A stretch of DNA of 64,000 nt. It comes from Escherichia coli. Its GTDB lineage: Bacteria; Pseudomonadota; Gammaproteobacteria; Enterobacterales; Enterobacteriaceae. The position numbers were made by a program, and so were the translations under genes. Positions within the stretch are counted from its first letter, which is position 1. Each line of letters starts with the position of its first letter. The notes under the pieces were generated by a model that saw nothing but the letters and a program-made list of their open reading frames with translations, was not told where the DNA came from and made no database searches. Location: assembly GCF_050920415.1 (NCBI RefSeq), contig NZ_CP169309.1; one strand, written 5' to 3'. This document shows, in pieces, positions 60,598 through 60,783 of this stretch.

Positions 60598-60783
60598 AAG
60601 TTATCCTTACAATGTGTTTATCGCTTGCTAAGCATCGAGTGCGACGGAAATGCCAGAATAGCACTCTCCTGCATACACGCACCGATAGCCACTTTTTTTC
60701 GCCCCCCAAATGTAGACCAGACGGGGGGCGAAAGGGAAGACTCCAGGTATGACAAATCAGGCGTTAAATCACGTTTTCTGGTC

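What the first reader, a model, noticed from the sequence alone, without database searches (positions are those of the whole stretch)
60692..60730. GC-rich hairpin upstream of hupA with a T-run on the 5' side
The hairpin CGCCCCCC-N15-GGGGGGCG is preceded, not followed, by a T7 run on the plus strand, and is followed by an A-run on the minus-strand transcript. It therefore does not look like an intrinsic terminator for yjaG or any other transcript in either orientation. It lies in the hupA promoter-upstream region and could be a protein-binding or structural element.
Basis: seen in the sequence. Interest (0 to 1): 0.2.

Follow-up and report, generated by a model that had tools for sequence, protein, structure and literature searches.

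The report
Hairpin is the hupA core promoter
The GC-rich inverted repeat between yjaG and hupA in E. coli is real, but it is neither a terminator nor an upstream element: it is the already-mapped hupA promoter itself, and the pairing between its two arms shows no sign of being selected.

Summary
A perfect inverted repeat lies at window 60697-60733 (TTTCGCCCCCC-N15-GGGGGGCGAAA). It has a T7 run on its 5' side on the + strand and an A7 run on its 3' side on the gene-sense (-) strand. It is unique in the window and folds far better than shuffled sequence.

The published hupA transcription start, 105 nt before the ATG, falls on the G at window 60702, inside the 3' arm. On the sense strand:
- The 5' arm is promoter spacer (-31..-21).
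- The loop holds the -10 hexamer TACATT, exactly at -12..-7.
- The 3' arm is the G-rich discriminator, the start site and the first transcribed bases (-5..+6).
- The A7 run is +4..+10 of hupA mRNA.

hupA mRNA therefore carries only one arm.

Across 84 orthologous loci there are no compensatory changes. Changes in one arm are never matched in the other, and hairpin stability runs from -24.4 kcal/mol (Escherichia, the extreme) to -7.6. The element is single-copy per genome, has no Rfam match and has no mapped 3' end.

Verdict: a known sigma-70 promoter whose C-rich spacer and G-rich discriminator happen to be complementary. Low interest.

The parts
60697..60733 (.). Perfect 11-bp inverted repeat TTTCGCCCCCC-N15-GGGGGGCGAAA. 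This is the finding itself.
60733..60738 (-). hupA -35 hexamer TTCCCT (-36..-31, 18-bp spacer). It matches the consensus at 3 of 6 positions in E. coli and reads TTCACA (5 of 6) in many other genera.
   Evidence: in Erwinia the scanner calls TTCACA-18-TACATT at the homologous site
60723..60733 (-). 5' arm on the sense strand, at promoter positions -31..-21 (upstream part of the spacer). It is not transcribed from hupA P1.
60709..60714 (-). hupA -10 hexamer TACATT at -12..-7, inside the hairpin loop. It is invariant in all orthologs examined.
60703..60708 (-). Discriminator TGGGGG (-6..-1), which forms most of the 3' arm G-run.
60702..60702 (-). hupA P1 transcription start site (G; K-12 coordinate 4200176), 105 nt upstream of the ATG.
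   Evidence: Mendoza-Vargas 2009 Table 1, PMC2760140; mapped onto the window
60697..60707 (-). 3' arm on the sense strand, at -5..+6 (discriminator, start site and first transcribed bases).
60693..60699 (-). A7 run, which is +4..+10 of hupA mRNA. It appears as the T7 run on the window + strand.
60598..60702 (-). hupA 5' UTR, 105 nt, nearly invariant across genera.
60325..60597 (-). hupA coding sequence (HU-alpha, 90 aa).
60784..61374 (-). yjaG coding sequence. Its stop codon lies 50 nt upstream of the 5' arm.
60276..60297 (-). The real intrinsic terminator of hupA, and presumably of yjaG read-through transcripts: a stem followed by a T-run.
   Evidence: Term-seq 3' end at K-12 4200605

Best explanation
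The inverted repeat is the core of the known sigma-70 promoter of hupA (hupA P1).

Reading the sense (-) strand, the promoter is laid out as follows:
- A weak -35 hexamer, TTCCCT.
- An 18-bp spacer whose upstream part is the C-rich 5' arm.
- The -10 hexamer TACATT, in the loop.
- A G-rich discriminator, TGGGGG.
- The start site, a G.
- An A-rich initial transcribed sequence, GCGAAAAAAAG.

RNA polymerase holoenzyme binds and melts the AT-richer centre (the loop) between two GC-rich blocks. The two arms are complementary because a C-run in the spacer and a G-run in the discriminator necessarily pair on paper. In Escherichia the match happens to extend by five more bases.

The hairpin is not part of hupA mRNA, which starts inside the 3' arm. 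It can form only in rare read-through transcripts coming from yjaG, and nothing indicates that it acts there.

Shown: the positions, the published start site, the conservation pattern, and the absence of covariation and of 3' ends.

Inferred: the GC-rich discriminator tunes this promoter's dependence on negative supercoiling and growth phase, as described for other GC-rich discriminators.
For: - Start site: the published start site at -105 (Kohno 1990, Claret 1996 and the authors' own mapping) is listed in PMC2760140 Table 1. The numbering convention was checked against galE P1, listed at -26. A K-12-serotype strain has the same intergenic length and is identical from -47 to the ATG.
- Geometry: with that start site, TACATT falls exactly at -12..-7, and the arms at -31..-21 and -5..+6.
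- Conservation of the promoter: TACATT and its flanks are invariant in 60 distinct Enterobacteriaceae intergenic sequences and in Erwinia, Pantoea and Dickeya. The context TCTACATTT persists even in an AT-rich 2.4-Mb genome whose YjaG is 59% identical. The -35 reads TTCACA at 18-bp spacing in many genera, and the promoter scanner finds that site as the only hit in Erwinia.
- The rival -10 candidate TATTCT (60655-60660) is TTTTCT or TTTTTT elsewhere.
- Pairing is not selected. There are 0 compensatory changes in 33 distinct sequences, and 6 of 11 pairs depart only by mismatches. The paired fraction is 79.8%, against 80.1% in column shuffles. GGGGGG becomes GGAGGG, GGAAGG, GGTAGG or GTGGGG opposite an unchanged CCCCCC. 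The outer 5' arm is the least conserved stretch (0.727), while its supposed partner at +2..+6 scores 0.997. Hairpin free energy ranges from -24.4 to -7.6 kcal/mol with a median of -13.4, and Escherichia is the extreme.
- Other tests: no Term-seq 3' end at the hairpin, no Rfam match, and one copy per E. coli genome.
- A fragment running from -70 to just before the ATG drives lacZ expression (PMC6047807).
- GC-rich discriminators as determinants of the supercoiling and ppGpp response: review PMC9221221.
Against: - The start site comes from one accessible table. The original papers could not be read, and four genome-wide start-site supplements held no entry for hupA.
- The C6 run in the spacer is well conserved (0.961), which is unusual for a spacer and is not explained by known RNA polymerase contacts.
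- A perfect 11-bp repeat is individually improbable: 0.47 such repeats are expected per 64 kb.
- Every ortholog within Enterobacterales keeps some residual C/G pairing. With so little divergence, lack of covariation is weak negative evidence.
- The absence of a Term-seq peak may simply reflect low yjaG expression.
Confidence: 0.82

Rival explanations
1. The hairpin acts at the RNA level in yjaG read-through transcripts. It would be either a protective 3' stem-loop to which Rho-terminated or processed yjaG mRNA is trimmed back, or a roadblock that insulates the hupA promoter from upstream transcription.
For: - The hairpin lies 50 nt after the yjaG stop codon, and no other terminator-like site lies between yjaG and hupA.
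- The RNA stem is very stable in E. coli: -24.4 kcal/mol for 47 nt and z -2.9.
- Some pairing persists in all Enterobacterales orthologs.
Against: - No 3' end is listed anywhere in K-12 4200000-4200219 in the Term-seq tables, which do list nearby ends.
- No compensatory change occurs, and mismatches in the middle of the stem go uncompensated in a third of distinct sequences.
- Stability varies threefold between genera.
- There is no U-tract.
Confidence: 0.08
2. The repeat acts at the DNA level as a structural element. Under high negative supercoiling it would extrude as a cruciform, or as a single-strand hairpin during melting, at the hupA promoter. HU, which prefers distorted DNA, or another protein would bind it, giving autoregulation or supercoil sensing.
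For: - The DNA hairpins are stable on both strands: -13.7 and -12.8 kcal/mol, z -5.8 and -4.3.
- HU has high affinity for kinks and cruciforms (abstract of bioRxiv 10.1101/2021.06.17.448862, listed).
- Autogenous control of hupA is in the title of Kohno 1990. This rests on my own knowledge; the paper was not read.
- The C6 run is conserved without an obvious reason.
Against: - A 15-nt spacer between the arms makes extrusion costly. This is established knowledge of cruciform energetics and was not computed here.
- Complementarity is not maintained across genera.
- In the open complex the 5' arm (-31..-21) stays double-stranded, so it cannot pair with the melted 3' arm (inference).
- No paper in the searched library links hupA to a cruciform.
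Confidence: 0.05
3. The repeat is a palindromic operator for a dimeric transcription factor that overlaps the promoter.
For: - It is a perfect inverted repeat overlapping a core promoter, as many repressor operators are.
- hupA is reported to respond to CRP, Fis and RstA.
Against: - The two half-sites are conserved very unequally, 0.727 against 0.997 for the outer five bases.
- The half-site centres are 26 bp apart, or 2.5 helical turns, which places them on opposite faces of the DNA.
- C6/G6 does not resemble the CRP, Fis or RstA sites known to me.
Confidence: 0.03
4. It is a non-canonical intrinsic terminator of yjaG.
For: It is a GC-rich stem downstream of a stop codon.
Against: - Neither strand has a U-tract, the loop is 15 nt, and the scan does not call it.
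- No 3' end is mapped there.
Confidence: 0.01

Closest known systems
hupA P1 promoter of E. coli (Kohno et al. 1990; Claret and Rouviere-Yaniv 1996; listed in RegulonDB-derived Table 1 of PMC2760140)
   Same: It is this element. The start site at -105 falls in the 3' arm, TACATT sits at -12..-7, and the fragment from -70 to the ATG has promoter activity.
   Different: I found no mention in the searchable literature that the spacer and the discriminator form an 11-bp inverted repeat. That is a descriptive detail, not a new element.
Promoters with GC-rich discriminators that respond to supercoiling and ppGpp (stable-RNA promoters such as rrnB P1 and tyrT; fis)
   Same: It has a GC-rich block between the -10 and the start site and a suboptimal -35. 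It drives a growth-phase-regulated, Fis-activated gene (PMC9221221).
   Different: The spacer is 18 bp rather than the 16 bp typical of that class. The second base after the -10 is G, which by my own knowledge of sigma region 1.2 contacts favours stable open complexes. The ppGpp and supercoiling responses of hupA P1 were not verified here.
Rho-independent (intrinsic) terminator
   Same: It is a GC-rich stem-loop a short distance after a stop codon.
   Different: It has no U-tract on either strand, a 15-nt loop and no mapped 3' end. The true terminator of the unit lies after hupA at 60297-60276.
Repetitive extragenic palindromes (REP/BIME)
   Same: It is an intergenic GC-rich palindrome in E. 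coli.
   Different: It occurs once per genome in 5420 genomes, does not resemble the REP consensus, and has no Rfam match or repeat family.

Membership tests
Sigma-70 promoter (hupA P1) | An experimentally mapped transcription start site | tested here: met
   The start site at -105 from the ATG is given by two classical studies and re-found by DMTSS (PMC2760140 Table 1). It maps to the G at window 60702. This was taken from the literature, not measured here.
Sigma-70 promoter (hupA P1) | A -10 hexamer ending about 7 nt before the start, with A at position 2 and T at position 6 | tested here: met
   TACATT lies at -12..-7 and is invariant in all orthologs.
Sigma-70 promoter (hupA P1) | A -35 hexamer 16-18 bp upstream of the -10 | tested here: met
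   E. coli has TTCCCT (3 of 6) at 18 bp and many genera have TTCACA (5 of 6) at the same place. The scanner calls the site in Erwinia but not in E. coli, where the -35 falls below its cut-off.
Intrinsic terminator | A U-rich tract immediately 3' of the stem | tested here: not met
   The sense strand continues with AAAAAAAGUGG and the + strand with AAAGGGAAG. The terminator scan does not call it.
Intrinsic terminator | RNA 3' ends at the end of the hairpin | tested here: not met
   There is no entry at K-12 4200000-4200219 in the Term-seq tables of PMC7815308. The caveat is that these tables are thresholded and yjaG may be weakly expressed.
Conserved structured RNA | Base pairs maintained by compensatory substitutions | tested here: not met
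   There are 0 pairs with changes on both sides. The paired fraction is 79.8% against 80.1% in shuffles, and 6 of 11 pairs depart by mismatches only. No Rfam family matches.
REP/BIME or other dispersed palindromic repeat | Many copies per genome | tested here: not met
   The median is one place per genome in 5420 E. coli genomes, and there is one copy in the window.
Palindromic operator of a dimeric regulator | Both half-sites conserved alike | tested here: not met
   The outer 5' arm scores 0.727 and its partner 0.997. G-run changes are not mirrored in the C-run.
Cruciform-forming inverted repeat | Extrusion on supercoiled DNA | not testable with these tools
   Only single-strand DNA folding could be computed: -13.7 and -12.8 kcal/mol. 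The 15-nt central spacer argues against easy extrusion (inference).
Stringent or supercoiling-sensitive promoter class | A response to ppGpp/DksA or to DNA relaxation that depends on the discriminator | not tested
   Only the sequence feature is shown: the discriminator TGGGGG is 5 of 6 G/C. The regulatory consequence is inferred from PMC9221221.

The most novel reading that the evidence does not exclude
The complementarity between the spacer and the discriminator of hupA P1 is functional. The promoter of the gene for HU, a protein that prefers distorted and cruciform DNA, would be built as an extrudable inverted repeat, so that HU level or superhelical density feeds back on its own transcription through a DNA structure. 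Alternatively, the hairpin in yjaG read-through RNA shields the promoter from upstream transcription.
Probability: 0.05. Interest if true: 0.5.

Novelty: already known. Interest (0 to 1): 0.1.

Why it matters
It matters little beyond annotation. The element is the long-known promoter of hupA, and nothing found here changes how it is thought to work.

The useful lesson is methodological. A GC-rich inverted repeat with the T-run on the wrong side need not be an orphan structure. Here the wrong-side A/T run is the start of the transcript, and the loop is the -10 region.

If the small residual possibility were true, that HU regulates its own promoter through a DNA structure, it would be a neat example of structure-based autoregulation of a nucleoid protein. 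The comparative data argue against it.

Tried and rejected
- I first guessed that the hupA promoter used TATTCT (60655-60660) as its -10, which would have put the hairpin at about -52..-82 and made the A7 run an UP-element-like tract. I rejected this because the published start site is -105 and because TATTCT is not conserved, reading TTTTCT or TTTTTT elsewhere.
- Rfam at a permissive threshold gave only a meaningless miRNA hit with E = 3.1.
- A literature search for yjaG together with hupA found no papers. The twelve papers that mention yjaG were irrelevant.
- Independent genome-wide start-site or 3'-end tables gave nothing. The supplements were either not held as text or had no hupA entry: Dar and Sorek, Rend-seq, Cappable-seq, ROSE, Shigella dRNA-seq, Salmonella ChIP-exo and the 3'-UTR valves paper.
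- I looked by eye for CRP-like sites (TGTGA-N6-TCACA) upstream and found no convincing match. The invariant AAAACGTGA at -75..-67 remains unassigned.
- I looked for a recurring inverted repeat around the -10 in distant lineages. An AT-rich genome (L086) keeps TCTACATTT but has lost both the C-run and the G-run, and no repeat brackets the -10. L088 is too diverged to recognise the promoter. L087 and L089 lack the hupA junction.

Full report
**What is there**

The window is E. coli. The 271-bp region around the finding is present in 5419 of 5426 complete genomes, flanked by genes annotated yjaG and hupA. In the window these genes lie on the minus strand: nfi 62088-61417, yjaG 61374-60784, hupA 60597-60325 and yjaH from 60318.

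The + strand reads TTTTTTT CGCCCCCC AAATGTAGACCAGAC GGGGGGCG AAAGGGAAG. The sense strand reads CCCTTT CGCCCCCC GTCTGGTCTACATTT GGGGGGCG AAAAAAAGTGG.

It is a perfect 11-bp inverted repeat, TTTCGCCCCCC/GGGGGGCGAAA, with arms at 60697-60707 and 60723-60733 and 15 nt between them.

It is not a chance feature:
- The motif is unique in the window and absent from 100 shuffles.
- Folding z-scores are -2.9 and -3.3 as RNA over 91 nt, and -5.8 and -4.3 as DNA over 37 nt.
- Perfect repeats of this size with short loops number 8 in the window, against 0.47 in shuffles.

**Where it sits relative to transcription**

Table 1 of Mendoza-Vargas et al. 2009 (PMC2760140) lists hupA P1 with a known start site at -105 from the start codon. 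It cites Kohno 1990 and Claret 1996 and reports an identical result from the authors' own mapping. I checked the numbering convention with galE P1, listed at -26, whose AUG is known to lie at +27.

The Term-seq tables of Adams et al. 2021 (PMC7815308) fix the hupA ATG at K-12 4200281, which gives the mapping K-12 = 4260878 minus the window coordinate. A K-12-serotype genome has the same intergenic length and is identical from -47 to the ATG.

The start site is therefore the G at window 60702, inside the 3' arm. With that start:
- TACATT (60714-60709) lies exactly at -12..-7, inside the loop.
- The 5' arm covers -31..-21, in the spacer.
- The 3' arm covers -5..+6: the discriminator TGGGGG, the start site and the first transcribed bases.
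- The A7 run is +4..+10 of hupA mRNA.
- The -35 hexamer at 18-bp spacing is TTCCCT.

The T-run on the wrong side is simply the template-strand view of the beginning of the hupA transcript. hupA mRNA contains only one arm and cannot form the hairpin.

**Comparative evidence for the promoter**

I collected 80 orthologous loci from Enterobacteriaceae. I added Cronobacter, Erwinia, Pantoea and Dickeya loci and two more distant ones.
- The block from -26 to +105 is almost invariant. TACATT and the eight bases before it are essentially fixed.
- The -35 reads TTCACA, a 5-of-6 match to the consensus, at the same 18-bp spacing in many genera. In Erwinia the promoter scanner returns TTCACA-18-TACATT as the only promoter-like site in the region.
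- The alternative -10 I first considered, TATTCT at 60655-60660, loses its essential A in most genera.
- In an AT-rich 2.4-Mb genome whose YjaG is 59% identical, the context TCTACATTT is still present about 100 nt before the hupA ATG. The C-run and G-run are both gone, and no inverted repeat brackets the -10.

**Is the pairing itself selected?**

On 33 distinct sequences, counting the 11 pairs gives these results:
- No compensatory change occurs.
- Six pairs depart only through mismatches.
- The paired fraction is 79.8%, against 80.1% after shuffling partners.

The G-run varies (GGAGGG, GGGAGG, GGAAGG, GGTAGG, GTGGGG) opposite an unchanged CCCCCC. The outer 5' arm varies (TTCCG, ATCTG, ATTAG, TTGAT and others) opposite an invariant CGAAA.

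By zone, the outer 5' arm is the least conserved stretch of the whole intergenic region (0.727), while its supposed partner is among the most conserved (0.997). Predicted hairpin stability ranges from -24.4 kcal/mol in Escherichia, the extreme, to -7.6, with a median of -13.4. Each arm is therefore conserved, or not, for its own reasons. The perfect stem is an Escherichia peculiarity.

**Other tests**
- The terminator scan does not call the site, although it calls the real hupA terminator at 60297-60276.
- The Term-seq tables list 3' ends at K-12 4200253, 4200389 and 4200605 but none between 4200000 and 4200219.
- Rfam gives nothing.
- The element occurs once per E. coli genome, so it is not a dispersed palindrome.
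- A cloned fragment from -70 to the ATG drives lacZ (PMC6047807).

**How it most likely works**

RNA polymerase holoenzyme recognises a weak -35 and the -10 TACATT and melts the AT-richer centre between two GC-rich blocks. Activators reported for hupA, namely Fis (PMC9221221), CRP (Claret 1996, not read here) and RstA, presumably compensate for the weak -35.

GC-rich discriminators are described as determinants of the response to negative supercoiling and ppGpp (PMC9221221). I infer that the G-run plays that role here, which fits hupA's early-growth expression, but I did not test it.

The complementarity of the C-run and G-run follows from their composition. The extra TTTCG/CGAAA match in Escherichia is best read as incidental. 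The well-conserved C6 run in the spacer is not explained by known contacts and remains the one loose end.

**Rivals**

An RNA-level role in yjaG read-through transcripts (confidence 0.08) and a DNA cruciform or HU-feedback role (0.05) are not excluded. They are disfavoured by the lack of covariation, the variable stability, the 15-nt spacer and the absence of 3' ends. A palindromic operator (0.03) is disfavoured by the unequal conservation of the two halves. An intrinsic terminator (0.01) is essentially excluded.

**Limits**
- The start site rests on one accessible table, and the original papers were not available.
- Several genome-wide datasets could not be consulted.
- Sequence divergence within Enterobacterales is small, so the absence of covariation is only moderate evidence.
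- The Term-seq tables are thresholded.

**Verdict**

Novelty: already known. Interest: low.

Noticed in passing
window 60598-60702 (- strand); L082 about 1920-2040: The 105-nt hupA 5' UTR is almost invariant from Escherichia to Erwinia. It is predicted to form a long imperfect rod (+11..+89) with a variable apical loop, and Dickeya carries a roughly 120-nt insertion exactly in that loop. Adams et al. list a Term-seq 3' end inside this UTR at K-12 4200253 (window 60625). There is no covariation because the sequence is too conserved, and the single-sequence z-score is only -1.4.
   Followed up: partly
window 60769-60777 (- strand; -75..-67 of hupA P1): AAAACGTGA just after the yjaG stop codon is invariant in all genera examined, including Erwinia, Pantoea and Dickeya. 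It is probably a regulator site, but I could not match it convincingly to CRP or Fis consensus sequences.
   Followed up: partly
window 60250-60318 (- strand): The hupA intrinsic terminator (60297-60276) lies inside the annotated 5' end of yjaH, and Term-seq classifies its 3' end as internal to yjaH. An in-frame ATG at 60252 would start the protein at MLAGALFLTAC, a typical lipoprotein signal with a lipobox. The annotated yjaH start may therefore be too far upstream.
   Followed up: partly
window 59057-59102: A perfect 17-bp inverted repeat, GAGTAAAAATGACTCGC-N12-GCGAGTCATTTTTACTC, lies in the divergent region between the sensor-kinase gene (57582-58958, -) and the zraP-like gene (to 59615, +). 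It is the longest short-loop repeat in the window and is probably the operator of the cognate response regulator.
   Followed up: no
window 60655-60660 (- strand): TATTCT with a plausible spacing looks like a second -10 inside the hupA 5' UTR, but its A at position 2 is lost in most other genera (TTTTCT, TTTTTT). It is unlikely to be a conserved promoter.
   Followed up: yes
L037 (CACSKA010000020.1); protein P0104: A record titled Chryseobacterium sp. 18061 carries an Enterobacter-type yjaG-hupA locus (93% YjaG identity). A YjaG protein 87% identical to the E. coli one is named as from Vagococcus sp. WN89Y. Both look like contaminated or mislabelled assemblies.
   Followed up: no
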